From NCBI GenBank assembly GCA_037129925.1, contig JBAXTZ010000015.1, positions 1 to 64,000 of the forward strand: a stretch of 64,000 bases of DNA, in the 5' to 3' direction. The notes under the pieces were generated by a model. It saw nothing but the letters and a program-made list of their open reading frames with translations. It did not search any database and was not told where the DNA came from. Of the stretch, positions 1 through 47,039 are shown in pieces (within the stretch, counting starts at the first letter, position 1; each line of letters begins with the position of its first letter). Source of the stretch: Bacillota bacterium (GTDB lineage: Bacteria > Bacillota > Negativicutes > JBAXTZ01). The position numbers were made by a program, and so were the translations under genes.

Positions 1-400
1 CATGCTTGGTTTCCATCCGCACATAATCCATATCCGCAGGACCAATGCCAACATCTTCCGCAGTGATATACCGGCCACCGAGACTCTGGACGTAGCGTCC
101 AAACGATCTGAACAACGACTCGCTCTTATCTTTTTTGGAATTGCCGATAATAACAGCTTTGCCGCCGCCGAGATTCAATCCCGCGACTGCCGCTTTATAA
201 GTCATGCCGCGTGCCAACCGCAAAACGTCGGTTAGCGCGTCTTCCTCACATTCATAATCCCACATCCGGGTACCGCCTAACGCCGGTCCGAGCGTGGTAT
301 CGTGGATACAAATGATAGCTTTTAATCCTGAAGTCGCGTCATGACAAAACATCAGTTGCTCGTAATGATACTCCTGCAGTTTTTGAAAAATTTCCATCAT
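1..400 (-). CDS. Leucine dehydrogenase (Glu/Leu/Phe/Val dehydrogenase family), N-terminal ~133 aa; gene continues beyond the window start
   Basis: Minus-strand translation from 400 downward reads [86 protein letters not shown]..., which matches bacterial leucine dehydrogenase including the GGGK dinucleotide/active-site region. An AGGAG RBS (rc of 402-408) precedes the ATG. It is absent from the ORF track because it has no in-window stop. Confidence 0.8.
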
Positions 401-14200: not shown

Positions 14201-14270
14201 GACGTTCCCCCGTTCGCGATTTTTTCACCTGCGTTACTCAAATTATATACCCACAGTTGCAGCTTTTCCA

Positions 14271-14906
14271 CTATTGCCACAGCAGTTGGATGCATTCCCA
14301 GAGAAATTTCAAAGCAAAAACGATTATCACCGCGCCACAGATTTTGTTAATGACACCAAAAATTCGCGCAGATATCAGATGCCGCAGTAGCGCGACCGCA
14401 ATAGTCAACCCCGCAAACCACAACAGCGAGGCGCTGCACATCCCGAGGAAGAAAACATTCTTCGCCGCTTCGGGCAATCCAGCGTTAACCGTCCCGAAAA
14501 GAATCGAGCCATCGATCAGTGCGTGCGGATTGAGCCAGGTTACGACGAACAAGTCACGACAGACACTCCAGAAGGAATAGTTTTTGGTACCGGCATCAGT
14601 TTTTATAACGACTGCTGTACGAATCAGCTTGATACCGATAATCAGCAACATTATAAATCCGGCAAACAAAATCAATGATTTCAGCCAGGAAAACCGATCA
14701 ATCAACGCGCCTAACCCAAGAAAACAAGCCGTCGCAAGCGAAATGTCCATAAACGAAACGATTAGTATGGTAATGATATGGCAACGCCAACCACCCCGCA
14801 GCGCCGCGTTAATCACATAAATATTCTGTAGACCAATCGGCACAACATAGGCGATGCCGAGTAAAAGACCTTGAAGAAAATACATAATTACTAAGTCCTC
14901 TATCAA
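14271..14906 (-). CDS. LysE/ArgO family amino-acid exporter
   Basis: 211 aa, six TM helices, and a LysE-type N-terminus (LLGIAYVVPIGLQNIYVINAALRGG). Confidence 0.75.
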   Translation of the reverse strand: MIEDLVIMYFLQGLLLGIAYVVPIGLQNIYVINAALRGGWRCHIITILIVSFMDISLATACFLGLGALIDRFSWLKSLILFAGFIMLLIIGIKLIRTAVVIKTDAGTKNYSFWSVCRDLFVVTWLNPHALIDGSILFGTVNAGLPEAAKNVFFLGMCSASLLWFAGLTIAVALLRHLISARIFGVINKICGAVIIVFALKFLWECIQLLWQ

Positions 14907-15008
14907 AAATCGGCTACACAGGTAATTCGCGTCTCATACTTTAAACACAATCAATTATTGACGTTTGCCATATATTCTTTGTTGTTTTGCCATTATCAAC
15001 TTGCGTAC

Positions 15009-15401
15009 TCATTTTTTCATACGATCACAGGCTTGCCACGCGACACAATAGACCACTACAGGAATAATGAACAACACTAAGTGTAGAAATTTATCCAAGT
15101 CATAAACACCTAGCCTCCAAACTGCCAGATAAAAAGTGTACAAGGAAAATACCGCTGCACCTACGATCGCTATTTTACTATTTTGATAGATTCCTATAGC
15201 TGTGCTCATAAGCAAAACCAGCGTGAAATACTCCAATAATCCTGCTGTGTGTAAATTAAAGAATACCAATAATACATATCCTACTACTAGGATAACGTTA
15301 TAGATAACTGCAGGAATTAACAACTGCTTGTTTTGCCAGTTTTGTTCTTCTTTCTTTTCTTCAAGCGTCAAATTAGCGAATTGTTTACGATATTCATTCA
15401 T
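15009..15401 (-). CDS. Membrane protein fragment homologous to the C-terminal module of the zinc-ribbon membrane protein family (split from the 15450..17669 ORF)
   Basis: 130 aa. NWQNKQLLIPAVIYNV...VVYCVAWQACDRMKK aligns with the C-terminus of the 25281..27155 protein (FRQNKQLLIPAILFNV...ITVYSVAWQAAGRIKK). Confidence 0.55.
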   Translation of the reverse strand: MNEYRKQFANLTLEEKKEEQNWQNKQLLIPAVIYNVILVVGYVLLVFFNLHTAGLLEYFTLVLLMSTAIGIYQNSKIAIVGAAVFSLYTFYLAVWRLGVYDLDKFLHLVLFIIPVVVYCVAWQACDRMKK

Positions 15402-15449
15402 CGATTTCCCGGCAAAAACTGCACTGATTATCCCGGCACATATAAATAC

Positions 15450-17669
15450 CTATCCCGTCACTACTCCAAAAGCCACAAACCCTGCCGCTGCACCGCAAAA
15501 GAGAAAAAAATAAGCCGGAAATATCACGACCGCAGCAATTTTGCTTTTTTCTATCAAACCAACATTAAGCATCAAAAGCAACAAAACAGAAACTATGAAA
15601 AACGCATTAACAAACTCCGTTTCCCGAAAAAACATCAAACCCGAACAAATAATCAAAATGCAATGATTTATCCAAACCGACCTTGATATTGCTAAGCGGT
15701 TTTTTAAAAAACTATCTACTGAATTAACTTGAACACCTTCAATTTCCGAAGAAACGTCCAGTTTGCTCGGTTTAATTAAAGTCGATTTTGCCTGAACCAC
15801 ATCTCTTACAGAAGCCATTTGCTTTTCCGTTTGAACATTATCAACTTTTAACATTTCATAAACTACTGCAAGTGTCGGTAAATAAAGCAAACAATACAAA
15901 ATATGTCCCAATATCAAAGAACAATACAAAAGTACTTTCAGCAGAATTTTCTCAACAGGACTTTTTTGAAAAAACAAAAATACTACTATCACGCCAATAA
16001 AAAACGCCGTACCTGCCGCAAGAACAGATGTAGCAACATAGCGTAAATTCAACAAGAATAGCTTCCACTTATACCCTTTCACGAGCCTGCGGCTTTCTTG
16101 CATACAATCATCGGACGACATTTCTGGACAATCATTCATAATAAAAACCGATAAAGAGTATTCAAGATACGCAACAATTCCCGGCACAACGAATAATACC
16201 GTCCAAAATGCCGTCTTGATAAACGTCGAAAAAACTATCAAAAAGGATTTACGAAAATCTTTTATTCCGACAAATAATACGCTATAAATTGGCAAGCTAT
16301 CTTTCGCAATTTTACTAAGTAAAATGGCATAGCCCTTACTACTGACTATAATAAAAAATAATGAGCACAAGAGCGAAATTAAAAATAGCGGAAACAACCA
16401 ACCATAAGGCAATTTGTCGCGAAATGTTGATGAAAAAAACAAAAGATAAATCACCGGCAAAAAAACAAACACTGATTGCAAGATGAAAATTGAAACCAAT
16501 CCTTTAAAATGCGATTTTGCCGCAAGCATCCCATTTTTTCGAATTTCCAAATTGTCTTTGTTTATCCAAACAGCACTACGCTTTGTTTGCAACACCACCT
16601 GTGAATCTAGCATTTCCAATGTTTCAATGCAATGTTTACTCTGCCGGGGTTCGATTTCACTCACGCCAATTTCGACAGCTTTCACGCCCTCTTTCAACAG
16701 TCTATGATATTCCCATGCTGCAATAATAGACCGATAATACAGAAAAGCCGAAGCAATTATCAAGACACTTGAACCAATCAAGACTGTCCATTTGCTGACG
16801 GCAACTAACGCTGCAAGTAGCAAAATATACATTAACGAGGAGATCAATACGCAAATTCGATTACCCCGGAATATCCCAAATCCAATTAAAGCAACACCAA
16901 CGGAGACTAATAACCCGCCGAGATATGCTCCCATGCTAATAATTGCATATCCGGCTATCCCCCAGTGCATGATGGCCAATATTTGGAAGGAATTTTTTAC
17001 AGCTCTAATGCGCACTTTGTACTCAGATCCCATGATGCTGGTTTCCGAAAAATCTACAGATTTACCGCAACGCACGCAGAACAATGCCGTCTGATCCGAG
17101 GTGTCTTTTGTTTGAATTATCTCAATAACGTAATAACAAACCAGAAGGCACACCGATGCTGAAAGAACAAACTGCCCTTGTCCGATACAAACTAGCAACA
17201 TAAAGATCGCTAAAACGCAAAAATATACAAATATCTTGAAGAAATTTGCGCCTTTAGCTAGCTGACCAGCTAAGCGTAATTGTTTTTCACTGGTTTGTAC
17301 ACTATGTCTTGCAAAATCATCTTCAACGCAGTCTCGACAAAACAACAAGAATACCTGCTTCCTGTTCTTGAACAGGGAGTAAATACATAAGCCAAGCATG
17401 ATGAACAGCAATAATACGTTCAAATACTCGTTCTTGGCTCCGATTGCTAACACAACCATAAGCATTGGCATCAGTACAAACGCCAACGCCAAAAATGAAC
17501 TCCTGCGATGTTCCTTGACCAATATATCAACGCCGTTGTTTTCTGCCATTATGCTAAAATCGCTGCTGGCAGTCAGGTCATTACCGCATTTCATACAACA
17601 CGTTGGATTATCGTCGATACCCGCACCGCATTTTATACAATACATTTTTCTCTCCATGATAGTTTTCAT
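15450..17669 (-). CDS. Zinc-ribbon polytopic membrane protein (paralog family, member 1); probably truncated/split
   Basis: 739 aa. An N-terminal C4 zinc ribbon (MYCIKCGAGIDDNPTCCMKCGND) is followed by more than 15 predicted TM helices with interspersed CxDC and CVRCG motifs. It is a paralog of the 25281, 24153, 22056 and 20590 ORFs. Confidence 0.6.
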   Translation of the reverse strand: MKTIMERKMYCIKCGAGIDDNPTCCMKCGNDLTASSDFSIMAENNGVDILVKEHRRSSFLALAFVLMPMLMVVLAIGAKNEYLNVLLLFIMLGLCIYSLFKNRKQVFLLFCRDCVEDDFARHSVQTSEKQLRLAGQLAKGANFFKIFVYFCVLAIFMLLVCIGQGQFVLSASVCLLVCYYVIEIIQTKDTSDQTALFCVRCGKSVDFSETSIMGSEYKVRIRAVKNSFQILAIMHWGIAGYAIISMGAYLGGLLVSVGVALIGFGIFRGNRICVLISSLMYILLLAALVAVSKWTVLIGSSVLIIASAFLYYRSIIAAWEYHRLLKEGVKAVEIGVSEIEPRQSKHCIETLEMLDSQVVLQTKRSAVWINKDNLEIRKNGMLAAKSHFKGLVSIFILQSVFVFLPVIYLLFFSSTFRDKLPYGWLFPLFLISLLCSLFFIIVSSKGYAILLSKIAKDSLPIYSVLFVGIKDFRKSFLIVFSTFIKTAFWTVLFVVPGIVAYLEYSLSVFIMNDCPEMSSDDCMQESRRLVKGYKWKLFLLNLRYVATSVLAAGTAFFIGVIVVFLFFQKSPVEKILLKVLLYCSLILGHILYCLLYLPTLAVVYEMLKVDNVQTEKQMASVRDVVQAKSTLIKPSKLDVSSEIEGVQVNSVDSFLKNRLAISRSVWINHCILIICSGLMFFRETEFVNAFFIVSVLLLLMLNVGLIEKSKIAAVVIFPAYFFLFCGAAAGFVAFGVVTG

Positions 17670-17680
17670 TTCCTCGTCGG

Positions 17681-18457
17681 CTATTTGCCCAATTTCGCCA
17701 CTGAATTCACCAACGCCTGCACTGATTTTGTTTCAATTACTACGCTGCAATTCAATTCCGAACTTAACGCTAGAAATTTTCGTAAATCAATCTCGCCCTC
17801 GAAAAATTCCAAATGGCATTTTTCGCCGATAGCATCGTGCAAATGGAAATGAGTGATTTTGTCAGAATACTTTTCAAACACTGCGCTATCAGAATAACCA
17901 GCCGCATGATCATGTCCGACATCCCAAGTCAAAAATACATTGTCGTATTCCAGCAATAATTCCAACGCTTTGCGAATGTGCGGCATAGAAAAATTCCCGG
18001 TGTTTTCAACGCAGATTTTCGCCCGTTTTTCACGGGCAACCGGCAGAATGATTTCCAGCGATTGCTGCAAGTTACGAATAAAATCATCGCAATATTCATC
18101 GTACAGCCATACTTTCTTGTCCGGCAACTTAAAATGAACCCCATTATTCAAATGAATATTCAAAATATCAATCATCCCGGTCGGAACAGCGTTCAAAGTA
18201 TTATTTAGCAAATTGACGAAGCCATTACGAATGTCATCGTGAAACGATGCCAGATCAAGTTCTTCCGGCGCATGGATATTAAACCGCACCCCCTGCTCAG
18301 CAAAATTACGATAGTCAATTTTCGCAAGGTTGGCAACCGAATAATCCGGCAGATTCATGTTCAGTTCAACAAAACTCAGCCCAAGCTGCTTGCATAAAGC
18401 CACCTGCTGTTGCAGGGTTTTTAACTCGATTAATGTTGGCATACCGAAGTGTTGCAT
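17681..18457 (-). CDS. Sugar phosphate isomerase/epimerase (xylose-isomerase-like TIM barrel)
   Basis: 258 aa with metal-binding His/Asp/Glu patterns (NIHAPEE, VENT, WDVGHD, FHLHDA). Confidence 0.6.
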   Translation of the reverse strand: MQHFGMPTLIELKTLQQQVALCKQLGLSFVELNMNLPDYSVANLAKIDYRNFAEQGVRFNIHAPEELDLASFHDDIRNGFVNLLNNTLNAVPTGMIDILNIHLNNGVHFKLPDKKVWLYDEYCDDFIRNLQQSLEIILPVAREKRAKICVENTGNFSMPHIRKALELLLEYDNVFLTWDVGHDHAAGYSDSAVFEKYSDKITHFHLHDAIGEKCHLEFFEGEIDLRKFLALSSELNCSVVIETKSVQALVNSVAKLGK

Positions 18458-18484
18458 AAATTAACTCCTTGTTTAGTCAATAGT

Positions 18485-19294: not shown

Positions 19295-19303
19295 TACATA
19301 ATT

Positions 19304-20566: not shown

Positions 20567-20589
20567 TTATTTTTTGTTAGCTTCCGAAG

Positions 20590-22074
20590 CTACATTTCGT
20601 CCCGGTTATTCGCGTCCCGACAAAGATACTTCTTCCACACCGCAAAAACGAGTAAAACCGATGCTACCATCACTAAATCGCTACGCCAACCAGAAACATC
20701 CAGAAAGTATTCCTTTGTTTGTGTTCTGTCCAAAATCGCGAGCGCTTGCGAAAAATTCCAGCCAAACGCTATTCCGATAGCAGCCGCTAGATGCTTGGTC
20801 TTAAATACAGCAAGCACAATAAACATTGCAAATAAATACTGACCAATCCAATCTAATACAGTGTAATAATCAGAGAAGCAAACATTTAAAATCATAAAAA
20901 ATGACGCTACTATGAATGCCGCGCCGTACTTACTAAAGCCTTTTCGCTGAATGCTTGCAACGAAAGAAAACATCCCAATGCCTACAAGAATCGAAGCGGA
21001 CAAATAATAAATAAACGAAAGGCCAAAATATTTCCAGAAATTCACGCCGCTGTAATCAGGAAGATGCGTACTGCTAACAAACGCTAATCTTCCAAGAAAA
21101 CTAAGTGCAAAGACGGCAAATCCTAATAACGTGTATATCAGTAATATTCTCCACGCCCTTTTATTGTCGAAAAACACATAGCTTGGGCTACCGTTCTGAC
21201 GGTGCTCAAACCACATTACACAAATAACGCCACCAGCTATCGCAAACCAGTTCTCACCTAACATCCTAAACAAAGCCAAATATTCCACAGAAGTTTTGCT
21301 GAATTTCAGAACGTCAAAAGTGACTTTTTTTAATCCGAACAGTGAAAAGATCAGACTCACTGCAATACTTATAACAGAAAAAATGACGATAAATAACAGA
21401 CTTTTGCCAATCGCTTTTAATGCAGCCCGGTTATTCTTTTCTGGAACTGCAACCAGCTCATCCTTTGTTGACACTTCAACAGTGTTTTTGCTTATTGCAG
21501 TTTGAACCGAGTTGTTTTGTTCTTCTTCAAATGCTATTTGATTTTTGATTTCTTTTGCCAGTCTGTCATAGACTAAACTAGCCTTTATTCCCTTATAATA
21601 GCAGTAGACAATAAAAAAGATAATAGTAATCTGAATCCAAATTAGTCCGGAGGTCGCGGCAGTTAATCCGGCCAACAACACAATGAACACCAATAACGAC
21701 AGGAACAATGCGGTTTGATATTTGCGATATATACCCCACCCCAGTATCAAAAAAATCAACCCAACCACTATATCGAACATTTGTCCATCACAGTCGTAAA
21801 CAAACCACCAGGCAAGAAACCAATTCATCCAAGCTAAACTCTTCAACTTTGCAATCGCTTCTTTGAGCTGCGCTTTCTTATTCGAACCAAGAATTCGCGC
21901 TTCGGAGTAATCAATCTCCTGACCGCAGCGAACACAGTATATCGCTTGCTGATTTTTTGGTTTTCTGGTTCTTCTATACTCAGAATAAGCAAAAGCAAAA
22001 TAAATCAATGCCGTCACGGCGGCAAAATAATAGCCAGTCACTATGTCCACAATAATTATTCCGACGGCAAACAT
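20590..22074 (-). CDS. Polytopic membrane protein, paralog-family member (distal part; probably one gene with the 22056..22502 ORF)
   Basis: 494 aa. It contains the family motif AIYCVRCGQEIDYSEARILGS about 45 aa from its N-terminus. It overlaps the upstream ORF by 19 nt in a different frame. Confidence 0.5.
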   Translation of the reverse strand: MFAVGIIIVDIVTGYYFAAVTALIYFAFAYSEYRRTRKPKNQQAIYCVRCGQEIDYSEARILGSNKKAQLKEAIAKLKSLAWMNWFLAWWFVYDCDGQMFDIVVGLIFLILGWGIYRKYQTALFLSLLVFIVLLAGLTAATSGLIWIQITIIFFIVYCYYKGIKASLVYDRLAKEIKNQIAFEEEQNNSVQTAISKNTVEVSTKDELVAVPEKNNRAALKAIGKSLLFIVIFSVISIAVSLIFSLFGLKKVTFDVLKFSKTSVEYLALFRMLGENWFAIAGGVICVMWFEHRQNGSPSYVFFDNKRAWRILLIYTLLGFAVFALSFLGRLAFVSSTHLPDYSGVNFWKYFGLSFIYYLSASILVGIGMFSFVASIQRKGFSKYGAAFIVASFFMILNVCFSDYYTVLDWIGQYLFAMFIVLAVFKTKHLAAAIGIAFGWNFSQALAILDRTQTKEYFLDVSGWRSDLVMVASVLLVFAVWKKYLCRDANNRDEM

Positions 22075-22502
22075 TGAAAACAGAACGCAGGCCTCAGAAT
22101 ATTGAATTTTTTATGAAATGCTCCGGCTTTTCGAAACAGCCGTTCACTGACCACCACATTATGATGCTGCAAATCTGCAGTCACACAGTCTTTGCAATAC
22201 ATCAGTAACTCATGCTCAGGATGTTTAAACCTCGAATTAATAAGTATTCCTAGCAAATATACTACACATAGTGTGGTAGCAATGATATTTTTAAATATTA
22301 TCGGTGCGATCACAGCAAACATCGCCAATAGCTCCAACATAATGGTCAACAGCCAATGTTCGGAACTGCAGCTGATTATTTTTAATACACCGTTCGTCGC
22401 CACCGCATTGCAAAAATCATGGCTGGCTGTCATATCGTTGCCGCATTTCTCACAATATAGTGAATTAGAATCAACAACACAGCCGCATTTTATGCAATAC
22501 AC
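22056..22502 (-). CDS. Zinc-ribbon membrane protein, paralog-family member (proximal part)
   Basis: 148 aa. It carries MYCIKCGCVVDSNSLYCEKCGNDMTASHDF, two TM helices and a CKDC motif, co-linear with the first 150 aa of the 15450..17669 protein. Confidence 0.6.
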   Translation of the reverse strand: MYCIKCGCVVDSNSLYCEKCGNDMTASHDFCNAVATNGVLKIISCSSEHWLLTIMLELLAMFAVIAPIIFKNIIATTLCVVYLLGILINSRFKHPEHELLMYCKDCVTADLQHHNVVVSERLFRKAGAFHKKFNILRPAFCFQCLPSE

Positions 22503-22529
22503 GCTTCTCTCCTTTAGCTTGTCATACGA

Positions 22530-22640
22530 TTATTTCTTTTCATCTACAACCGGCGCAGCAATTTCCTTCACGCCCGATTTCTTATCCATCAACGTCGAAA
22601 TATACGCCGTCAGCATACCAATGCCACCGTTGTCGTGCTC
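22530..22640 (-). pseudogene. Remnant of an SPFH/flotillin gene 3' end (duplicate of 27181..27290)
   Basis: About 90% nucleotide identity to the 3' end of the SPFH gene. It would encode ...NGGIGMLTAYISTLMDKKSGVKEIAAPVVDEKK*, versus ...GGMGMLTAYISTLMDKKSGATEIVAPVMDEKK* in the intact gene. Confidence 0.7.
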
Positions 22641-22745
22641 CTAAATCTTCCTTAAATTCCGGATTTAAGTACCTTGAGAGAAAACTTCTGGCAATTCTCC
22701 GCTATCGCTTTGGCCGCATCAGAATCATAAAGTTCGTTATTAATT

Positions 22746-23882
22746 TCATTTAACCAAAAAATCATACCAATTTTTGCGATCAATACATACTACATTCGCA
22801 TTTTCGTAAGCATCCAGAAACTCTTGCGGCGCACGGAACGCCCGCGATGGTGCGCTCCACTTGAATTCATAGCCGTGTAGTTGCCCGTCACGTTCTTCGA
22901 TATAATCAATCTCTTTGCCGGCATGGGTGCGCCAGAAATAACTGTTAACCAAATAATTACAGTTGATGTTGCGTTTCATCCGCTCGGCGATACAGAAATT
23001 TTCCCATAGCGCGCCTTTATCATTGCGCAGTTCCGGCGGCGCAAAATTCTGAATCAGGCTGTTTCGCACGCCGATATCATAGAAGTAAATTTTCTTTTTG
23101 CGACTCAGTTCATTGCGCAGATTTCTTGAAAACGGCGACAAGCGGAAAATCACAAAACACTTTTCCAACAAATCGATATAGTTTTCAACAATAGTCTTGG
23201 AAACTCCCAGCAAACCGCAAAGCTCATTGACCGAAACCTCGCTGCCAATTTGCAGTGCTAGCGCTTGTAATAATTTTAACAGGATTTCCGGCCGCCTGAC
23301 CCGTTCGTGTTCCAATACATCTTTGTATAAATAACCGCCGGTCAATTCATCCAACTCCTGCCGCGCTTCATCATCGCTGCTGGTAAATATTTGCGGATAA
23401 AAGCCAAAGCGCATTATTTTGTCACTCACAGCTTCAAACGGTAATATTTGCACCTGACTCTCAATTTCAGCCAGAGCCAGCGGCGGCAACAAAAAGTGTC
23501 GCGCCCTGCCGGTAAGCGGTTCGCCGGTTTTATTCGCCAGGTCGAAGCTGGACGAACCAGTTGCAATAACCTGAATATCTGGCAGTTCATCCGCGATGAT
23601 CTTCAAAATCATCCCGATGTTTTCTACCCGCTGCGCTTCATCAAGAACAATCAGCCGGTAGTTCCCCAAATAATCCCGCAGTGTTTCTTTATTCTGATTA
23701 GCAAGCGCAATCTGGTTCGGCAATAGGTCACAGTTGATATAACGGCTGGTGCCTGGATGTTTGGCGAGAATCGACTTGACAAGTGTGGTTTTCCCCACGC
23801 GCCGCGCACCAAACAGCACTACAACGCGGCCTTTGAATAATTGTTTCTCAATCTGAACGCCAAGCAATCTTTCAAAAAACAT
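22746..23882 (-). CDS. AAA ATPase, AAA_14 + DUF4143 family
   Basis: 378 aa. It has a Walker A (GARRVGKTT) and Walker B (LIVLDEAQ), and a C-terminal DUF4143-like region. Confidence 0.7.
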   Translation of the reverse strand: MFFERLLGVQIEKQLFKGRVVVLFGARRVGKTTLVKSILAKHPGTSRYINCDLLPNQIALANQNKETLRDYLGNYRLIVLDEAQRVENIGMILKIIADELPDIQVIATGSSSFDLANKTGEPLTGRARHFLLPPLALAEIESQVQILPFEAVSDKIMRFGFYPQIFTSSDDEARQELDELTGGYLYKDVLEHERVRRPEILLKLLQALALQIGSEVSVNELCGLLGVSKTIVENYIDLLEKCFVIFRLSPFSRNLRNELSRKKKIYFYDIGVRNSLIQNFAPPELRNDKGALWENFCIAERMKRNINCNYLVNSYFWRTHAGKEIDYIEERDGQLHGYEFKWSAPSRAFRAPQEFLDAYENANVVCIDRKNWYDFLVK

Positions 23883-23980
23883 TTGTCTTTCTCCGATATT
23901 ATGTCAAATTTGGGATTTATACATCCCGAATTCATTATAATTTAGATCGTTTGATTGTTCAAACAAAATCGCCTGACGGA

Positions 23981-24049
23981 TTACCACCACCGTCGCATTG
24001 CAAAAATCACGGCTGGCGGCTGGTCATTGCCGCATTTCAAGCAATACAT
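23981..24049 (-). pseudogene. 22-aa remnant of a zinc-ribbon family gene 5' end
   Basis: The minus strand reads MYCLKCGNDQPPAVIFAMRRWW*. Its nucleotide sequence matches the conserved 5' ends of the zinc-ribbon paralogs, with an internal deletion fusing the first CxxC to the CGND half-site. Confidence 0.55.
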
Positions 24050-24152
24050 ACAATCTCCATAATTTGATTTGCGTCGCCAACACTTATTTCAAGCTTTCTT
24101 CAGGTAGAACCATAAATTTCCCGCCCGCTTCAAGGTGGTTTTCCAGAAACCA

Positions 24153-25262
24153 TCAAATCTCTTTATCGATAATTATTTTTCGATAGACATCTCGCTTTAG
24201 ATTTTTGTATCGAGCATAAGACTTTAATCCTCGCACATAGGTCAAAACAATAACTGCCTTTAGAAAGATTACACTATTAAAAATATAAACAATGCCGGTC
24301 GCTTTGACCATTACCCAAGCATAAAAAATAACCATAACCAACGAAACTATCATTGCTATTCGGGAAAACTTGGATATTCTCCAAGCTAGCAAACCGAAAA
24401 GTAACGCAGTCACTAATTCAACGACTCTCAGCTGCTCCCCTGATATTAACGCGTAAAACATGAATGCCACATTGAATAGAGCTAAAATCTTCATGTTCCA
24501 CGCTTCATACATACTACTATCCAGTTTGTCTGGATCAATGTATTCAAGACCTTCAAGCGTCACAAATCGACCGCAGGCACAACAATGAGTCGCAACCGCA
24601 TCCTTTTGTATCCGTTGTAATTTTTGACGCTCCAGAGCTTTGAAAGTGGTCAGCATGTTCTTATTATCAAATACCAAATACATCATCAGTAATAAACATG
24701 GTGCATACAATGATAAACTTTGCAAGCTGAAAAGGCTGTCGTAACGCCAGCCATATTTCAAGTTTTCATAAAAAAAATCAAACATTACGACAAAGACTAT
24801 CACCAAATATTCTAAATTGCTTTTGTATGAATATAAATTGTCGTAATACCATTCAACATATTTTTTCTCAACATTAATAATATTTTTTGCCACAGCCCCG
24901 CTCAATTTGCTTTTAAAACAATCCGGGCAGACCATCAGCGGCTCTTGAAACCTTAGTTTTCCACGCGATACAACCGCCAGCAATATCACCAAATACACGG
25001 TTAGGAGTATCGAAAGATAAACATTGATATAACACCAATTCAGAATCAATGCGCCAATTGCGCTGAAAATAATCCATTTCTTTTCAGCACTCTTATGCTT
25101 TACAGTAGTGTACATTTCACTTGGCGTTGAAATCAGAAATTTTTCCAGGCATCGCTTAGCGACTCGCAAATCGGTTCCGCACTGAACACAATTAATTGCT
25201 TCAACTGAATTTTCACTTCCACATTCAGGACAATACATACCGCACCTCATCAAACTTGTCAA
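24153..25262 (-). CDS. Zinc-ribbon polytopic membrane protein (paralog family)
   Basis: 369 aa. It carries MYCPECGSENSVEAINCVQCGTDL, a CPDC motif and CCACGRFVTLEGLEYIDPD between TM helices. Confidence 0.6.
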   Translation of the reverse strand: MTSLMRCGMYCPECGSENSVEAINCVQCGTDLRVAKRCLEKFLISTPSEMYTTVKHKSAEKKWIIFSAIGALILNWCYINVYLSILLTVYLVILLAVVSRGKLRFQEPLMVCPDCFKSKLSGAVAKNIINVEKKYVEWYYDNLYSYKSNLEYLVIVFVVMFDFFYENLKYGWRYDSLFSLQSLSLYAPCLLLMMYLVFDNKNMLTTFKALERQKLQRIQKDAVATHCCACGRFVTLEGLEYIDPDKLDSSMYEAWNMKILALFNVAFMFYALISGEQLRVVELVTALLFGLLAWRISKFSRIAMIVSLVMVIFYAWVMVKATGIVYIFNSVIFLKAVIVLTYVRGLKSYARYKNLKRDVYRKIIIDKEI

Positions 25263-25280
25263 CTCTGGCTGTCCATAACA

Positions 25281-27155
25281 TTACCCGTTCTCTGACGCAT
25301 TGATCTTTTTAATCCGCCCAGCTGCCTGCCATGCAACCGAGTACACCGTAATCGGAATAAGAAACAGCGCCAACTCCAGATAATATTCTGGATGATGTAT
25401 TATTATTCCGATGTCGAAATAATCACGGACAAACGTGTACGCAAGGAAGGCAGCCGAAGCTACAACACAAATCCTCATTCTGCGACAGATTCCAAACGCC
25501 GCCACTAAAAACAACGCTGCAACCAGATAATAGAAGTCGAATATTCCCACACGCTCATAGACTGCCGCAACAATATACCACGTCGCATATACCACGTTGA
25601 ACAGTATCGCCGGTATCAGCAACTGTTTGTTTTGCCGGAATTGCAGTTCATGTTGCTCTGATTCGGTTAATTGCGGAAACAACAGCTTATATTCTAGTAG
25701 TGCCTTGATGGCAGCTATCCCCGCGACCGCTCCTATCGCCGTGAATGCAACACCGAAGATTAAAGCTTTTGGATGAAAGACCTGAATCGATCCAACAAGC
25801 AGGATTAAATAAGTTGGTAATAGCGCGTATGCGCTTAATTTGCTTTTCTGCAACAAGCCAATATTTGTAATCATCAACAAACTTACAGCAAAGAAAAATA
25901 AGGTGTCCGAAAACTGCCTGCTCCAGAAATACATCAAGCAGGCGCAAACGGTGAGAATGAAATAATTTATCCGGACAGTTTTTTCGACATCCCTTGAACA
26001 ACGAGTTGCTTTACTGTAAACACTGTCAATGGCGTTTTCTCTAGTGCTTCCCATGGCGCTCTTTGCGTTCCCGCTATACCATAACGCTTTGATCGCCCGA
26101 TAGTAGCCAACAGCCATAGCAACTGTCAACGATAGTTCCAATGGCAGGTTTCCTTTTATTGCAAAACTTACCGCCATCAATAAAAATATAATCAAGAATA
26201 CAACCGCGGAAATAGCAACACAAACCCGCTTACGGCGATAAATACCAAAACCGCAAGCGGCGATTATTGCAGCAATACCAATTTCCAGAATATCAACCTT
26301 TACGAAGACCGACAGTAATATCCATACAGCTATGCCCCAGTGTGCATAAGCCAAAAATCGCGTCTCGTTGCCTTTTTCGGAATCATCCGTTTCGCTCGCA
26401 CCATCAACTTCTGTTTCCTCTGTTTCTTGAATGTCGTCAATTCCTGATTCTTTCTTTTTGCGCTCGATGCTGCTTTCCAAATCGTTCAGTTTGCAAAGAC
26501 TACCCGCTTCCGAATAATCTGCTGGCATACCGCACTTCATACAGTATAGCGCGAGCATCTCTTCATATCTTTTGGAGTTTTTCCGATATAAATACAGATA
26601 CGCAAAAAACAACAGCCCCGGCAACGCGTCTAAAAAGTATTCTTCTATAAAAAGTGTTATGATTGGCAAGTGATTATAAAAATATGTGGTTACAATAATC
26701 ACAAATACTATTGGCAGAATAATTCCCAAAATTGACACATTGCCGCTGCACTTCGAATACAAATTGCGCCAGTCGCTCAGGTTTGATGCGATGTCGCTAT
26801 TCGCGACACCGCATCTTTTCAATTCGACCACAGCACAGTTCGGACATAATAGAAGCGGATAGTATCCCGGCAATTTGTTCAAAACGGCGAGAAACGCCAA
26901 AACCAACATGCCAAGACAATAGCACAACGACACAATTTCGTTGTGTGCTAACCAGGGAACGATTACCGCCGAGGCTGCGATTGCCACCACCACTAATCTT
27001 GTTGTGCAGTTTTTTTTGTTTACGCGCAACATATCTGCAACATTAACTGAATCCGCTGTCTCATAGTATGTACGCTGTTCAGCCAATGCATAGCCGCACT
27101 TCGAACAACTAAGACTCATATAGCTGGTGCTAGCGCCGCATTTTATGCAATACAT
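25281..27155 (-). CDS. Zinc-ribbon polytopic membrane protein, apparent full-length family member
   Basis: 624 aa. It carries MYCIKCGASTSYMSLSCSKCGYAL, CPNC and YCMKCGMPADYSEAGS motifs and an acidic loop (ETEETEVDGASETDDSE). Its C-terminal module is homologous to the separate 15009..15401 ORF. Confidence 0.65.
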   Translation of the reverse strand: MYCIKCGASTSYMSLSCSKCGYALAEQRTYYETADSVNVADMLRVNKKNCTTRLVVVAIAASAVIVPWLAHNEIVSLCYCLGMLVLAFLAVLNKLPGYYPLLLCPNCAVVELKRCGVANSDIASNLSDWRNLYSKCSGNVSILGIILPIVFVIIVTTYFYNHLPIITLFIEEYFLDALPGLLFFAYLYLYRKNSKRYEEMLALYCMKCGMPADYSEAGSLCKLNDLESSIERKKKESGIDDIQETEETEVDGASETDDSEKGNETRFLAYAHWGIAVWILLSVFVKVDILEIGIAAIIAACGFGIYRRKRVCVAISAVVFLIIFLLMAVSFAIKGNLPLELSLTVAMAVGYYRAIKALWYSGNAKSAMGSTRENAIDSVYSKATRCSRDVEKTVRINYFILTVCACLMYFWSRQFSDTLFFFAVSLLMITNIGLLQKSKLSAYALLPTYLILLVGSIQVFHPKALIFGVAFTAIGAVAGIAAIKALLEYKLLFPQLTESEQHELQFRQNKQLLIPAILFNVVYATWYIVAAVYERVGIFDFYYLVAALFLVAAFGICRRMRICVVASAAFLAYTFVRDYFDIGIIIHHPEYYLELALFLIPITVYSVAWQAAGRIKKINASENG

Positions 27156-27180
27156 TTTTCCTCACACCATCCGAATCAGA

Positions 27181-29280
27181 TTATTTCTTTTCGTCCATAA
27201 CCGGCGCAACAATTTCCGTCGCGCCCGATTTCTTATCCATCAGCGTCGAAATATACGCCGTCAGCATCCCCATGCCACCCTCTTGTCCTTGCACGAGAAT
27301 GTCCGGCACGATTTTTATATTACTGTCGGAGATGCGTTTGAACACTTCGATTACGGTAACATTTTCCGGCGATATTGCTTCGCACTGTTTGCGGTAGGCT
27401 TCGGCGGTCGAGTTACCGATGGCGAGGATTTTCTGGGCCTCGGCGTCACCGATGGCTTTGATTCCGGCGGCTTCACCTTCGGCGGTTAGTTTTCTGGATT
27501 CCTTGGCGCCCTCGGCTTTTTTGATCGACGACAGTTTTTCCTGTTCGGCTATTTTCACGCCGATTTCGGCTTGCATAAGATTCTTTTGCTGATCAGCTTC
27601 GGCGCGGGATTTCTCAGTCGCAATCCGGGTTTGCTCGGCGAGTTGCTGTTCCTTGTACATTTCCTTGCGCTGCTCGGCGATAATCCGCATGGTCTGGGTT
27701 TCCATCAATTCCTGCGGCAACTGAATCTGACAGATCAGCACCGAAACACACTCCACATGATAATCGGTCAACTCCTGACGCGCATGTAATTCGGCTTTTT
27801 TCTGTTCCTCCTGCCGGTCTTGCAGGAAGCTCATGGCTTTGGTCGATGACGCCTGGTTACGGAACGACGAGTCAATCATCGGATGAATAACATGGTCGAT
27901 GAGATTTTCTACCGAGCCGATTTTTGCCACCATGTACGGCGCCTGATCCGGACGCACCCGGATAATTACTTTCACCGATACCATAATCAGGAAGCCGTCT
28001 TTAGATGTAACTTGCAACGAATTGAATTTGGTGTCCTTATCGTTGTCGTTCCAGTCGATTGTGATATTGGTAGTGTTTACAACGTATGGAATAAATGCCA
28101 GCGGATTGAGATAGTATATTCCCGGCCCGACTACTTCGCGCTGAATACCGCGATAGCCCTGCGGCACTACATAGCGCTCGATACCCGGCAACAACTGAAC
28201 TTCCGGCTTGCCTGCTTCCGTTCCCATTTCGGTTTGATCCGGTTCCCGGCCGACATTGGAAACGATTACTGCGACCTCGCCGCGTTCAACCTTGGCAACA
28301 TTATGCAACTGAACGGAAAACATGTAGGGATTGATATAGTAAGTACCGGGGCGCAGAACTTCCAATTGCGGTCCACGCTGACCGCCTGCGTTCAGAAAAG
28401 CCGAAGCATTCTGGAAATTATCATGTTCACAGACACTGGCAGCAACATATTCGTTGGGCGGCAATTCCTTACCGTCCAGCGCTGTAACCAAACCGACCTT
28501 TTCCGAAGGCACGATCAGCGCATCAGCTACCGCTACCACAAACAATGAAGTGTTCACCCGATAGGTTCCGGGAAACATGATGTTAATTTGCGGGCCTTTT
28601 TGGCCGCCCGCTGCCAGGAAAGTTTCGCCGTCCTGAAAGGACTTGTGTCCTTCCACGCTCTTGGCCAATAACCGGCCGCTGTCAATCGGCAATCCGTCCA
28701 TCGCCGTCACAATTCCGATTTTACCTTTGGGGATATGCAGCGAATTAATCTTGTTTACGCGAAACAACACCGGGTTTATCCGATATTGTCCCGGTGTCAG
28801 ATATTCAATCTGTGGACCTTTCTGACCACCGTTGTTGAGAAACGCCTCGGCATCTTGAAACGAATTGTGACCGCTGATAACCTTGGCAAATATTCGGTCC
28901 GGCGGTAGTGATTCGCCGTCAATTGCTTCGACCAAACCGACTTCGTCTTCGGCAATTTCTACGAAACCACTTTTATTGGTTACGTACAAAAACGGTATCA
29001 GAAAATGCAAGCCCGGTCCCAAAGTTTTCGCGCGTACGCCGACCTCACTGTTACGGGCTACAACCTGACCGCTGGGCATTTTTTTACCGAACCAACGGCG
29101 CTCAATGATTGCAATCTGACGGCCGTTGACCACCACGATAGAATTTCTTATGATGATCAACAGCACAATCAACGCTACAACCACCCAGATAATCGTGAAG
29201 ATTGTTGACAATGAGAGTGTTCCATTAAGTAGTGATGACATTTTTTCCTCCTCGAATTTTATTAATCCTTCCATAGCCAA
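27181..29280 (-). CDS. SPFH/band-7 (flotillin/YqiK-like) membrane protein with a triplicated N-terminal repeat
   Basis: 699 aa. An N-terminal TM helix is followed by three ~75-aa repeats (HNSFQDAEAFLNNGGQKGPQ / HKSFQDGETFLAAGGQKGPQ / HDNFQNASAFLNAGGQRGPQ), an SPFH core, and a flotillin-like EA-rich coiled coil. Confidence 0.8.
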   Translation of the reverse strand: MAMEGLIKFEEEKMSSLLNGTLSLSTIFTIIWVVVALIVLLIIIRNSIVVVNGRQIAIIERRWFGKKMPSGQVVARNSEVGVRAKTLGPGLHFLIPFLYVTNKSGFVEIAEDEVGLVEAIDGESLPPDRIFAKVISGHNSFQDAEAFLNNGGQKGPQIEYLTPGQYRINPVLFRVNKINSLHIPKGKIGIVTAMDGLPIDSGRLLAKSVEGHKSFQDGETFLAAGGQKGPQINIMFPGTYRVNTSLFVVAVADALIVPSEKVGLVTALDGKELPPNEYVAASVCEHDNFQNASAFLNAGGQRGPQLEVLRPGTYYINPYMFSVQLHNVAKVERGEVAVIVSNVGREPDQTEMGTEAGKPEVQLLPGIERYVVPQGYRGIQREVVGPGIYYLNPLAFIPYVVNTTNITIDWNDNDKDTKFNSLQVTSKDGFLIMVSVKVIIRVRPDQAPYMVAKIGSVENLIDHVIHPMIDSSFRNQASSTKAMSFLQDRQEEQKKAELHARQELTDYHVECVSVLICQIQLPQELMETQTMRIIAEQRKEMYKEQQLAEQTRIATEKSRAEADQQKNLMQAEIGVKIAEQEKLSSIKKAEGAKESRKLTAEGEAAGIKAIGDAEAQKILAIGNSTAEAYRKQCEAISPENVTVIEVFKRISDSNIKIVPDILVQGQEGGMGMLTAYISTLMDKKSGATEIVAPVMDEKK

Positions 29281-29297
29281 AATATTAAGGTTTTTAT

Positions 29298-43879: not shown

Positions 43880-43911
43880 CAGCCAAAAGGCTTCAAACCA
43901 CAATTTGCAAA

Positions 43912-43957
43912 ACATTATTCTACAGAGTATAATTCTCTGTAGAATAATGTTTTTTTG
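43912..43957 (+). terminator. Rho-independent terminator (perfect 15-16 bp stem plus T7)
   Basis: acattattctacagag / ctctgtagaataatgt, followed by TTTTTTT. It ends 8 nt before the GGAGG RBS of the next gene. Confidence 0.75.
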
Positions 43958-47003: not shown

Positions 47004-47039
47004 ATTTAAATAATGTTTCATGTGAAACATTATTTAAAT
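47004..47039. promoter_or_regulatory. Perfect AT-rich palindrome (17-bp arms, 2-nt spacer)
   Basis: atttaaataatgtttca tg tgaaacattatttaaat. It is not followed by a T-tract on either strand. It lies between the manA stop and the promoter region of the TPR-GT9 gene. Confidence 0.5.

What the first reader, a model, noticed from the sequence alone, without database searches (positions are those of the whole stretch)
17560..17669. Nucleotide-level conservation of the 5' ends of the zinc-ribbon paralogs (gene-conversion signature)
The first ~20 nt of the genes at 17645, 22502 and 27155, and of the remnant at 24049, are nearly identical (atgtattg[c/t]ataaaatgcgg). The following ~60 nt are also recognisably similar (for example gaaatgcggcaacgatatgacagccagccatgatttttgcaatgcg versus gaaatgcggtaatgacctgactgccagcagcgattttagcataatgg). 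Downstream protein sequence, by contrast, is only moderately conserved. The artefactual plus-strand ORFs 17398, 22192 and 27127 share peptides such as PHFIQY/PHFMQY for the same reason. This pattern fits recombination or gene conversion among copies, as in contingency/variable gene families.
Basis: seen in the sequence. Interest (0 to 1): 0.5.

Follow-up and report, generated by a model that had tools for sequence, protein, structure and literature searches.

The report
Recombination scars at zinc-ribbon gene starts
The shared first 20 bases of these membrane-protein genes are mostly what the peptide MYCIKCG dictates, but related genomes show that this gene start is where whole gene bodies were swapped and stacked beside an SPFH gene, which is ordinary flexible-island turnover and not an active variation switch.

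Summary
The 20-mer ATGTATTGYATAAAATGCGG starts genes A (17645), B (22502) and D (27155) and relic R (24049). That is 5 hits against 0.05 expected by chance. The longer similarity holds only for A/B (71% over 104 nt) and B/R (81% over 54 nt). D drops to about 40% after nt 21.

Within this genome there is no recent gene-conversion signal. The peptide alone predicts about 18 of 21 identical bases. Unrelated MYCI[KE]CG genes share 15-19 of 21. A-B synonymous sites are near saturation (pS 0.59-0.69). B orthologues in other genomes are closer to B (83%) than paralogue A is (65%). Five near-identical assemblies show the same structure.

Four related lineages nevertheless show historical recombination at this boundary. 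The same SPFH 3' end, intergenic spacer and 21 nt precede a B-type body in one genome and an unrelated D-type body in another. A third genome joins A's upstream flank to a B-type body.

In the window, the block D-C-R-ATPase sits between the SPFH gene and B. B is left behind a 101-nt relic of the SPFH 3' end (91% identical) and carries a frameshift.

Verdict: cassette replacement and decay in a flexible, defence-island-like region. It is not a contingency system.

The parts
15450..17645 (-). Gene A, a zinc-ribbon multi-pass membrane protein of 731 aa. Its start is the ATG at 17645, preceded by GGAGAG. An in-frame ATG at 17669 is unlikely to be the start.
   Evidence: ORF and translation. Weak Zn_Ribbon_1 and DUF975 hits below the Pfam cut-offs. 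Invariant Cys pairs C3/C6, C17/C20, C103/C106 and C190/C193 across the family.
17552..17645 (-). The B-type 5' module of gene A (codons 1-31). This is the finding's region. It is the only part of A with DNA-level similarity to the B-type genes.
   Evidence: 71% identity to winB over 104 nt. 74% to L021 and 80% to L022, both ending at 17552. First 40 aa are 57-65% identical to B-type against 28% in the body. pS 0.59-0.69.
17646..17786 (-). A's upstream flank: the intergenic spacer plus the 3' end of the AP_endonuc_2 gene. The same flank precedes a B-type gene in L022.
   Evidence: L022 9860-10094 matches window 17786-17552 at 80%. Flank identity is 81-90%.
20590..22502 (-). Gene B. It is split into B1 (22056-22502, 148 aa, GTG start) and B2 (20590-22074, 494 aa) by a 1-nt deletion between 22095 and 22094 (CTGA[A]GGCC). 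It is probably a recent pseudogene.
   Evidence: Intact 637-aa orthologues P0002 and P0003 at 78% and 75% identity. Three-way alignment shows a single gap column. The same frameshift is present in L023 and L024.
22503..22529 (-). Intergenic spacer 'ig1' upstream of B, with the ribosome-binding site AAAGGAGAG. It is orthologous to the SPFH-to-ZnR spacer of L021 and L044.
   Evidence: 23-24 of 27 bases identical to L021 and L044. Only 10 of 27 identical to the spacer upstream of D.
22528..22628 (-). Relic of the last ~100 nt of an SPFH gene. It marks the former SPFH-B junction.
   Evidence: 91% identical to 27179-27279. 90 of 99 bases identical to the intact copy and 83-84 of 99 to L021/L044. 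L021 9875-14003 is collinear with window 22628-18506.
22648..22747 (-). Relic of the 3' end of a PNP_UDP_1 gene. It lies between the ATPase gene and the SPFH relic.
   Evidence: 86% identical to L047 4225-4324. The translation ...EINNELYDSDAAKAIAENCQKFSLKVLKSGI* matches the C-terminus of the L047 PNP_UDP_1 protein.
22746..23882 (-). AAA_14/DUF4143 ATPase (defence candidate PDC-S01). It is part of the block inserted between the SPFH gene and B.
   Evidence: Pfam hits. PADLOC PDC-S01 at E=8.6e-144. Only 22% identical to the second ATPase at 29298-30695.
23981..24049 (-). Relic R, a decayed 5' fragment of a B-type gene. It reads MYCLKCGND..., with a 1-nt deletion and a stop after 22 codons. It lacks about 42-45 nt between the two CxxC knuckles, or else is truncated at codon ~10.
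   Evidence: Sequence. 81% identical to winB, 87% to L021 and 84% to L022 over 54-57 nt. Alignment. Identical in the 99.8% strain L050.
24153..25238 (-). Gene C, the most divergent paralogue (361 aa, MYCPECG start).
   Evidence: ORF. 20% identity to A. 15 of 21 bases match the motif.
25281..27155 (-). Gene D, a D-type paralogue of 624 aa. It shares only the first 21 nt with the A and B types.
   Evidence: ORF. 40-44% identity after nt 21. D-type orthologue P0007 found in L044-L049.
27156..27180 (-). Intergenic spacer 'ig2' upstream of D. It is unrelated to ig1.
   Evidence: 9-11 of 27 bases identical to every other SPFH-to-ZnR spacer.
27181..29280 (-). SPFH/Band_7 gene. Its 3' end (27179-27279) is the intact copy of the relic upstream of B.
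   Evidence: Pfam Band_7 at 1.8e-25. 80-95% identical to the SPFH genes of L021 and L044.
15009..15401 (-). 130-aa membrane protein gene downstream of A. It is homologous to the C-terminal module of D, which points to module shuffling within the family.
   Evidence: Protein alignment. 15295-15344 is 70% identical to 25594-25643.

Best explanation
The 5' similarity has three layers, and none of them is ongoing gene conversion.

(1) Peptide constraint. The genes encode an N-terminal zinc ribbon, MYCIKCG-x9-CxKCG. This fixes 15 of the first 21 bases, and with local codon usage it predicts about 18 of 21 identical.

(2) Shared descent of one 'B-type' 5' module. That module is present in gene B, in the dead fragment R, and as the first ~94-120 nt of gene A. 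A's body is as distant from B as D is. A is therefore an old chimera, or a gene whose body was replaced. The event is old, because synonymous sites are nearly saturated.

(3) The gene start is the left edge of a replaceable cassette slot. Related genomes carry the same SPFH 3' end, spacer and 21 nt in front of either a B-type or a D-type body. Another genome has A's flank in front of a B-type body. In this window a block (spacer ig2, D, C, R, PDC-S01 ATPase, PNP_UDP_1 relic) entered between the SPFH gene and B. It displaced B downstream behind a 101-nt relic of the SPFH 3' end, and B has since acquired a frameshift.

Shown: the repeat anatomy, the breakpoints, the relics, the codon statistics, and the stability among close strains.

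Inferred: the exchanges arose by homologous recombination anchored in the conserved upstream gene, with the other end joined illegitimately. At least one crossover fell inside the 21-nt block, because spacer ig1 is shared by B-type and D-type genes. The ZnR proteins are inferred to be exchangeable membrane partners of the SPFH protein, from the conserved order SPFH-ZnR-TPR-Tim44-like.
For: - Motif counts are.
- Peptide expectation is 17.9 of 21 identical, and P(6/6 same codons, B-D) = 0.0095.
- Unrelated MYCI[KE]CG genes share 15-19 of 21 bases. More than 600 such stretches exist in the metagenome collection.
- Same-codon test gives A-B 12/19 against 8.7 expected; all other regions are at chance.
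- NG86 for A vs B-type: codons 1-40 give pS 0.59-0.69 and dN 0.22-0.33. The body gives pS 0.72-0.86 and dN 0.70-0.75.
- N-terminal mosaic: A vs B-type is 57-65% identical in the first 40 aa against 28% in the body (Fisher p=1e-5). No such excess appears for A-D, B-D, A-C, B-C or D-C.
- Orthologues are closer than paralogues at +22..+93: winB-L021 83%, winA-L022 74%, winA-winB 65%.
- L021 has SPFH directly followed by the B orthologue, then TPR and Tim44-like genes. It is collinear with window 29252-27135 and 22628-18506.
- L044-L049 have SPFH directly followed by a D-type gene.
- Segment table: the SPFH 3' end groups by genome lineage; ig1 is shared by L044(D), winB and L021 (23-24/27); +1..21 is 20-21/21 in all; the bodies split into B-type and D-type at 37-39/99 across types.
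- L021-L044 identity is 90% at -100..-1 and 41% after +100.
- L022 informative sites switch from A-type to B-type between -1 and +45. L022 also has a 96-nt AP_endonuc_2 3' relic (96% identical) flanking an inserted gene.
- SPFH relic. PNP_UDP_1 relic. B frameshift.
- The same structure is present in L001, L002, L023, L024 and L050.
Against: - Only four lineages are available, all from metagenome assemblies. The direction and order of the events cannot be resolved.
- A 21-nt block is at or below the usual minimum for RecA-dependent exchange. A crossover inside it is therefore inferred, not demonstrated.
- B and D types could instead be very old alleles whose flanks are homogenised by recombination.
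- The A/B N-terminal similarity could partly reflect subfamily-specific constraint on the linker (NDxTASxDF...NGVD) and not mosaicism.
- 6/6 identical synonymous codons between B and D, and the rare ATA Ile codon in all six family genes, are slightly more than codon bias predicts (p about 0.01). This remains unexplained.
- The origin of spacer ig2 is unknown.
Confidence: 0.7

Rival explanations
1. Active gene conversion or a contingency system. The copies in this genome repeatedly exchange their 5' ends, or donate bodies to an expression site. This would homogenise the 5' ends and generate variants, as in pilE/pilS or vls-type families.
For: - A multi-copy family has an identical 20-mer at each start.
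- A truncated 5' relic (R) and a frameshifted copy (B) could be read as silent cassettes.
- B and D use identical codons at 6 of 6 synonymous positions (p about 0.01).
- Cross-genome junction swaps show that the boundary can recombine.
Against: - Synonymous sites of the A/B 5' ends are near saturation.
- Paralogues are less alike than orthologues at +22..+93: 65% against 83%.
- D shares nothing beyond nt 21.
- Every copy has its own start codon and ribosome-binding site, so there is no single expression site.
- There are no repeat tracts, inverted repeats or recombinase genes.
- Five assemblies at 99.8-100% identity have an identical structure.
Confidence: 0.06
2. Peptide selection plus whole-gene insertion only. 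The 21-nt identity is entirely a by-product of MYCIKCG and codon bias. Breakpoints sit near the gene starts only because genes are inserted and deleted as whole units. The motif plays no part in recombination.
For: - 17.9 of 21 identical bases are expected from the peptide.
- Unrelated genes share 15-19 of 21.
- A has only 19 of 21.
- Other relics in these loci have nothing to do with zinc ribbons: the PNP_UDP_1, AP_endonuc_2 and Tim44-like 3' ends.
- In L022 the inserted gene is not a ZnR gene.
Against: - Spacer ig1, including the ribosome-binding site, is shared at 23-24 of 27 bases by genes with unrelated bodies. The junction therefore lies downstream of the spacer and no further than +21, not in intergenic DNA.
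- The L022 switch lies inside the first 45 coding nt.
- A keeps a B-type N-terminal module on a non-B body.
Confidence: 0.2
3. A nucleotide-level functional element. The first ~20 nt are conserved as RNA or DNA and not only as codons. It could be a translation-initiation region, a small hairpin, or a protein-binding site shared by the family.
For: - All six family genes in four lineages use the rare ATA Ile codon (17% in the window) and TGC at the second Cys (codon usage).
- D-type orthologues with dS about 1.0 in codons 8-40 have zero changes in codons 1-7.
- Reduced synonymous change at gene starts is a known general phenomenon (established knowledge).
Against: - Only six synonymous sites are involved.
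- A and L022 do carry synonymous changes there.
- Folding of -30..+40 is not unusual, with z-scores from -1.8 to +0.6.
- There is no Rfam match in 14000-30000.
Confidence: 0.08

Closest known systems
Replacement-type flexible genomic islands, in which divergent cassettes occupy one slot between conserved flanks (for example capsule or O-antigen loci)
   Same: Conserved flanks at 80-95% identity (the SPFH gene, ThiF, AP_endonuc_2, LysE) surround gene bodies that are unrelated at the DNA level in different lineages, with knife-edge boundaries. Defence-candidate genes (PDC-S01) travel in the same region.
   Different: Here the slot holds a single lineage-specific membrane-protein gene. The boundary falls inside the coding sequence, after 7 codons. 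In this genome the older occupant was not lost but was displaced downstream with a relic of the flank.
Rhs/CdiA polymorphic-toxin loci with displaced 'orphan' modules (Koskiniemi et al. 2014, PMC3967940)
   Same: A newly acquired variable module sits next to the conserved part. The previous module is pushed downstream, and it still carries a fragment of the conserved upstream sequence. Here that fragment is 101 nt of the SPFH 3' end, plus the spacer. The same module can be 'main' in one genome and displaced in another (paper reading).
   Different: There is no toxin or immunity domain. The conserved part is a separate upstream gene plus 7 codons, not a long N-terminal region. The displaced gene keeps its own start and ribosome-binding site. 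No evidence exists that it can be re-fused or re-expressed.
Gene-conversion antigenic or phase variation families (pilE/pilS, vlsE, msp2) and contingency loci
   Same: A multi-copy family with conserved 5' ends and truncated copies.
   Different: The conserved block is only 21 nt, and 15 of those are fixed by the peptide. Synonymous sites are saturated. There is no expression site with silent cassettes, no repeat tract, and no variation among close strains.
SPFH proteins with membrane partners, such as the B. subtilis pspA-ydjGHI operon (Scholz et al. 2021, PMC8581546)
   Same: An SPFH gene is followed by integral membrane protein genes in one operon-like unit. Here the order is SPFH, ZnR membrane protein, TPR, Tim44-like, conserved between the window and L021. 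In B. subtilis the membrane proteins YdjG and YdjH anchor the SPFH protein.
   Different: No sequence relationship to YdjG or YdjH was tested or found. The partnership is inferred from gene order only. The SPFH protein here is about 690 aa and has its own N-terminal hydrophobic segment.

Membership tests
Gene-conversion / contingency variable gene family | High-identity conserved blocks between copies, including at synonymous sites, reflecting recent exchange | tested here: not met
   A vs B codons 1-40 give pS 0.59-0.69. Same-codon use is 12/19 against 8.7 expected, p=0.10. D is at 40% identity after nt 21.
Gene-conversion / contingency variable gene family | Concerted evolution: paralogues within a genome are more alike than orthologues between genomes | tested here: not met
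   At +22..+93, winA-winB is 65% identical, winB-L021 83%, and winA-L022 74%.
Gene-conversion / contingency variable gene family | Sequence or structural variation within a population or among near-identical strains | tested here: not met
   L001, L002, L023, L024 (99.98-100%) and L050 (99.8%) have the same arrangement, the same R and the same B frameshift. These are short-read assemblies only, so minority variants would be missed.
Gene-conversion / contingency variable gene family | Simple-sequence repeat tract or a site-specific recombinase with inverted repeats | tested here: not met
   No repeat tract in or upstream of the ZnR genes and no significant inverted repeats. The B frameshift is not in a homopolymer. 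No recombinase domain is present in the neighbouring genes.
Polymorphic toxin locus with orphan modules (Rhs/CdiA type) | A displaced module carrying a fragment of the conserved upstream sequence | tested here: met
   A 101-nt SPFH 3' relic (91% identical) plus the orthologous spacer lies in front of B.
Polymorphic toxin locus with orphan modules (Rhs/CdiA type) | A toxin domain on the variable part and a cognate immunity gene | tested here: not met
   No Pfam, NCBIfam or PADLOC hit to toxin or immunity families. The variable part is a multi-pass membrane protein.
Zinc-ribbon domain (Pfam Zn_Ribbon_1 PF13240 / DZR PF12773) | CxxC-x(9-12)-CxxC knuckles, and a score above the Pfam gathering threshold | tested here: inconclusive
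   The four Cys are invariant in all five family members. Pfam scores of 16-22 bits are below the cut-offs of 25-27.
Replacement flexible genomic island | Conserved syntenic flanks with non-homologous content in related genomes | tested here: met
   The ThiF ... LysE/glg flanks are 73-86% identical in L021, L022, L045 and L047, with different content between them.
PDC-S01 defence candidate (AAA_14/DUF4143 ATPase) | A full-length match to the PADLOC PDC-S01 models | tested here: met
   22746-23882 scores E=8.6e-144 over 1-376. 29298-30695 scores E=3.9e-63. Defence activity itself is not testable here.

The most novel reading that the evidence does not exclude
The SPFH 3' end, spacer and 21-nt zinc-ribbon start form a dedicated docking seam. 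Through it, this uncultured Bacillota lineage swaps and stacks alternative zinc-ribbon membrane partners of one SPFH scaffold. Older partners (B, R) are archived downstream, as in Rhs/CDI orphan arrays. This would be a cassette system for a membrane-associated function, possibly defence-related, and not for toxins.
Probability: 0.12. Interest if true: 0.65.

Novelty: new member of a known kind. Interest (0 to 1): 0.35.

Why it matters
The result shows how to read such a signal. A near-identical 20-mer at the start of paralogues looked like gene conversion. Fifteen of the first 21 bases are fixed by a very common N-terminal peptide, and the synonymous sites show no recent exchange.

The informative signal lay just outside the flagged coordinates. 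It consists of relics of upstream genes, and of orthologous loci in which unrelated gene bodies follow the same flank.

Biologically, the result defines an orphan family of zinc-ribbon multi-pass membrane proteins. In 1.84 billion representative proteins, only four clusters (A, B-type, C and a truncated D-type) share more than the zinc ribbon. The family is linked to an SPFH gene and turns over by cassette replacement in a defence-island-like region. If the SPFH link is functional, these proteins would be exchangeable membrane partners of a flotillin-like scaffold, and that can be tested.

Tried and rejected
1. I first placed the B frameshift at the A6 run (22107-22112) and considered phase variation or -1 frameshifting. 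Alignment with the orthologues shows the lost base is in CTGA[A]GGCC at 22095/22094, not in a homopolymer. Rejected.
2. I tested whether R's upstream DNA is a relic of one of the known flanks (AP_endonuc_2 or SPFH). Local alignments were no better than shuffles, p=0.2-0.8. Rejected.
3. The unaligned tail of L001 looked like a possible structural variant. It is Illumina adapter.
4. I considered recent duplication of the two AAA_14/DUF4143 ATPases as part of a duplicated unit. They are only 22% identical. Rejected.
5. I looked for a conserved RNA structure or an unusually open start region. z-scores ranged from -1.8 to +0.6 and there was no Rfam hit. No signal.
6. I looked for a promoter retained in the SPFH relic. 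A 9/12 sigma-70-like match (GTGGCA-17-TATATT) sits at the outer edge of both copies (22627-22599 and 27278-27250). However, the scan found 41 sites against 31 expected in the region. It is only a hint.
7. I searched for more family members. Word-based searches with A and D found only the queries themselves. The genome scan with the SPFH protein found no close relative, best 63%. The metagenome scan found only generic MYC[IP][KE]CG zinc ribbons. The exhaustive HMMER search found four clusters.
8. No SSRs or inverted repeats are associated with the gene starts.
Full report
**1. What is in the window**

All relevant genes are on the minus strand. A family of multi-pass membrane proteins with an N-terminal zinc ribbon is present in several copies:

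- A, 15450-17645, 731 aa.
- B, 20590-22502. It is split into 148-aa and 494-aa ORFs.
- C, 24153-25238, 361 aa.
- D, 25281-27155, 624 aa.
- R, a dead 5' fragment at 23981-24049.
- A 130-aa gene at 15009-15401 that matches the C-terminal module of D.

The proteins share an N-terminal core of about 320 aa with four invariant Cys pairs: C3/C6, C17/C20, C103/C106 and C190/C193. Pairwise identity in the core is 20-28%. Pfam gives only sub-threshold zinc-ribbon and DUF975 hits. NCBIfam and PADLOC give nothing.

An exhaustive HMMER search of 1.84 billion representative proteins finds only four clusters that share more than the zinc ribbon: A, B-type, C and a truncated D-type. This is a lineage-specific orphan family. 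The window is from an uncultured Bacillota MAG.

The neighbouring genes are:

- An SPFH/Band_7 gene (27181-29280).
- Two AAA_14/DUF4143 ATPases that match the defence candidate PDC-S01 (22746-23882 and 29298-30695).
- TPR (19304-20566) and Tim44-like (18485-19294) proteins.
- AP_endonuc_2 (17681-18457).
- LysE (14271-14906).

**2. Checking the observation**

The 20-mer ATGTATTGYATAAAATGCGG occurs at the starts of A, B and D and at R. A's second knuckle also matches, with 3 mismatches. That makes 5 hits against 0.05 expected. The plus-strand 'ORFs' with PHFIQY/PHFMQY are its reverse complement.

The longer similarity holds for two pairs only. A/B is 71% over 104 nt and B/R is 81% over 54 nt. 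D falls to 40-44% immediately after nt 21. C shares 15 of 21 bases.

22528-22628, upstream of B, is 91% identical to 27179-27279, the 3' end of the SPFH gene.

**3. Is the 5' identity more than the peptide?**

MYCIKCG fixes 15 of 21 bases. With local codon usage, 17.9 of 21 identical bases are expected. Nineteen unrelated metagenomic genes starting MYCI[KE]CG or MYCPKCG share 15-19 of 21 with the motif. More than 600 such stretches exist in the scanned metagenome collection. A has 19 of 21, which is inside that range.

Between B and D all six synonymous choices agree (P=0.0095). All six family genes seen in four lineages use the rare ATA codon. This is a small residual excess based on only six sites.

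For A vs B, same-codon use at identical residues in the first 36 codons is 12/19 against 8.7 expected (p=0.10). Everywhere else it is at chance.

Nei-Gojobori estimates for A vs B-type genes give the following:

| Region | pS | dN |
|---|---|---|
| Codons 1-40 | 0.59-0.69 | 0.22-0.33 |
| Body | 0.72-0.86 | 0.70-0.75 |

The extra DNA similarity of the A and B 5' ends therefore comes from amino-acid conservation. The synonymous sites are nearly saturated.

**4. Orthologues from other genomes**

A search with a repaired B protein found intact 637-aa orthologues: P0002 (78%, locus L021) and P0003 (75%, locus L022). The profile search found P0007, a D-type gene present in eight contigs (loci L044-L049).

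At +22..+93 the B orthologues are 83% identical. A and its positional counterpart in L022 are 74% identical. The paralogues A and B in this genome are only 65% identical. Paralogues are thus not homogenised within the genome.

Five assemblies of the same or nearly the same strain show the same arrangement, the same R and the same B frameshift. These are L001, L002, L023 and L024 at 99.98-100%, and L050 at 99.8%. No repeat tracts, notable inverted repeats, recombinase genes or Rfam elements are present.

Ongoing gene conversion or a contingency mechanism is therefore not supported.

**5. Evidence for historical recombination at the gene start**

(a) In L021 the SPFH gene is followed directly by the B orthologue and then by the TPR and Tim44-like genes. 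L021 is collinear with window 29252-27135 and with 22628-18506. Relative to L021, window 27134-22629 (D, C, R, ATPase, and a further relic) is extra DNA. It is flanked by the two copies of the SPFH 3' end.

(b) In L044-L049 the same SPFH gene (80-95% identical) is followed directly by a D-type gene.

(c) The segment-by-segment identities are as follows:

| Segment | Result |
|---|---|
| SPFH 3' end, 99 nt | Groups by lineage: the two window copies 90/99, L021-L044 91/99, across groups 83-84/99 |
| 27-nt spacer | Shared by L044 (D-type), winB and L021 (B-type) at 23-24/27; D in the window has an unrelated spacer (9-11/27) |
| +1..+21 | 20-21/21 in all |
| From +22 | Splits into B-type (81/99) and D-type (75/99), with 37-39/99 between types |

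L021 vs L044 falls from 90% at -100..-1 to 41% after +100. Adjacent segments therefore support incompatible groupings. That requires recombination. One junction must lie between the spacer and +22.

(d) In L022 the B-type gene sits behind A's flank. That flank is an AP_endonuc_2 3' relic plus the spacer, including the conserved upstream ATGAAAACTAT... Informative sites switch from A-type to B-type between -1 and +45.

(e) A's first 40 residues are 57-65% identical to B-type proteins, against 28% for the rest (p=1e-5). A-D, B-D and every pair involving C show no such excess. A therefore carries a B-type N-terminal module on a body that is as far from B as D is.

**6. Scars**

The loci are littered with short relics:

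- The SPFH 3' relic upstream of B.
- Immediately upstream of it, a relic of a PNP_UDP_1 3' end at 22648-22747. It is 86% identical to L047, and the C-terminal peptide is conserved.
- R, a B-type 5' fragment with a frameshift.
- In L022, a 96-nt AP_endonuc_2 3' relic (96% identical) flanking an inserted 515-aa gene.
- In L047, a Tim44-like 3' relic next to an IS element that also truncates the D-type gene.

B itself has lost one base (CTGA[A]GGCC, between 22095 and 22094) relative to both orthologues. The B orthologues evolve under purifying selection, with dN about 0.1 and dS 0.4-1.0. The window's B is therefore probably a recently inactivated, displaced copy.

**7. Mechanism**

The layering in sections 3-6 is shown. 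What follows is inferred.

New DNA from relatives with different cassette content entered by recombination anchored in the conserved upstream gene (SPFH, or AP_endonuc_2 in L022). The other end was joined illegitimately about 100 nt before the resident gene's stop codon. This rebuilds the upstream gene from donor sequence and leaves the resident 3' end as a relic in front of the displaced downstream gene.

The pairing of spacer ig1 with both B-type and D-type bodies needs at least one crossover inside, or at the edge of, the 21-nt block. This is the last stretch that all types share, because the peptide is constrained. That length is marginal for RecA-mediated exchange, so I rate a direct role of the motif as a crossover site at about 0.4. 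I rate the general cassette-replacement history at about 0.8.

The relic may persist because it carries B's promoter. A weak -35/-10 match lies at its outer edge, but the scan is not significant.

The functional link between the SPFH protein and the ZnR proteins rests on conserved gene order only. The B. subtilis YdjGHI precedent is an analogy.

**8. Comparison with known systems**

The closest process-level match is a replacement-type flexible genomic island. The displaced copy that carries a piece of the conserved upstream sequence works like the orphan modules of Rhs/CdiA loci (PMC3967940). There is no toxin or immunity content, so it is not a member of that class. It fails all tested defining features of gene-conversion or contingency families (see the membership table).

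**9. Verdict**

The 20-mer itself is largely ordinary. The locus is a well-resolved example of cassette replacement and decay in an orphan gene family: a new member of a known kind. Interest is modest at 0.35. The most novel reading not excluded is a dedicated seam for swapping SPFH membrane partners. It has a probability of about 0.12.

Noticed in passing
window 22094-22095 (minus strand), gene B 20590-22502: B is split into 148-aa and 494-aa ORFs by loss of one A in CTGA[A]GGCC, relative to two intact 637-aa orthologues. The same frameshift is present in independent assemblies. It is not in a homopolymer, so it is a probable recent pseudogene and not a phase-variable gene.
   Followed up: yes
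window 22648-22747: The ~100 nt between the ATPase gene stop and the SPFH relic is itself a relic of the 3' end of a PNP_UDP_1 gene. It is 86% identical to L047 4225-4324, and the C-terminal peptide is conserved. Two 3'-end relics therefore lie in tandem upstream of B.
   Followed up: yes
window 22746-23882, 29298-30695 and 32719-34413: Two AAA_14/DUF4143 ATPases match the PADLOC defence candidate PDC-S01 but are only 22% identical to each other. An AAA-ATPase_like + PDDEXK_9 protein lies nearby. The ThiF-to-LysE interval looks like a defence-island-like flexible region.
   Followed up: partly
window 15009-15401 vs 25281-25700; A C-terminus 15450-15700 vs the middle of D: There is module shuffling inside the family. 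The separate 130-aa gene matches D's C-terminal module (about 38% aa by eye from the alignment; 70% nt over 50 nt). A's last ~80 aa resemble a middle module of D (NxGLxxKSK...).
   Followed up: partly
L022 8015-8110 and 9860-9955: A 96-nt direct repeat (96% identical) of the AP_endonuc_2 3' end flanks an inserted gene for a 515-aa secreted protein. This is the same kind of scar as the SPFH relic in the window.
   Followed up: partly
L044-L049 (e.g. L047 1267-2204): The D-type gene of this lineage is truncated to 106 aa by an IS element (HTH_Tnp_1 transposase). It is followed by a 148-nt relic of the Tim44-like gene 3' end. The AP_endonuc_2-LysE junction has no ZnR gene in this lineage.
   Followed up: partly
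window 43909-43953 and 47004-47039; L021 14170-14233: Near-perfect palindromes of 36-45 nt are present. The one at 47004-47039 is 87-92% identical to a palindrome in L021. They may be shared terminators or REP-like elements.
   Followed up: no
window 19149-19203 (Tim44-like gene 18485-19294): A degenerate tandem repeat (units CCACCG / 21-nt) encodes a Gly/His-rich stretch, GGGGGHGGGGGGHGGGGGSHG, after the signal/TM segment.
   Followed up: no
family core, e.g. A residues 225-320 (window ~16690-16970): The membrane hairpin module with GxGIY[RK]xxR ... YYxGI also occurs as the whole of many small unrelated proteins in the representative library (P0025, P0049, P0050, P0149). It looks like a widespread membrane domain; its Pfam status was not checked.
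   Followed up: no
L001 3528-3575: The end of this public ENA contig is Illumina adapter sequence (AGATCGGAAGAGCACACGTCTGAACTCCAGTCAC...). It is not a structural variant.
   Followed up: yes
window 27181-29280; L021 8281-8347 vs 8503-8569: The SPFH protein is unusually long, at about 690 aa. Ahead of the Band_7 domain it has three internal repeats of about 75-95 aa (…SFQDAEAFLNxGGQKGPQ…).
   Followed up: no
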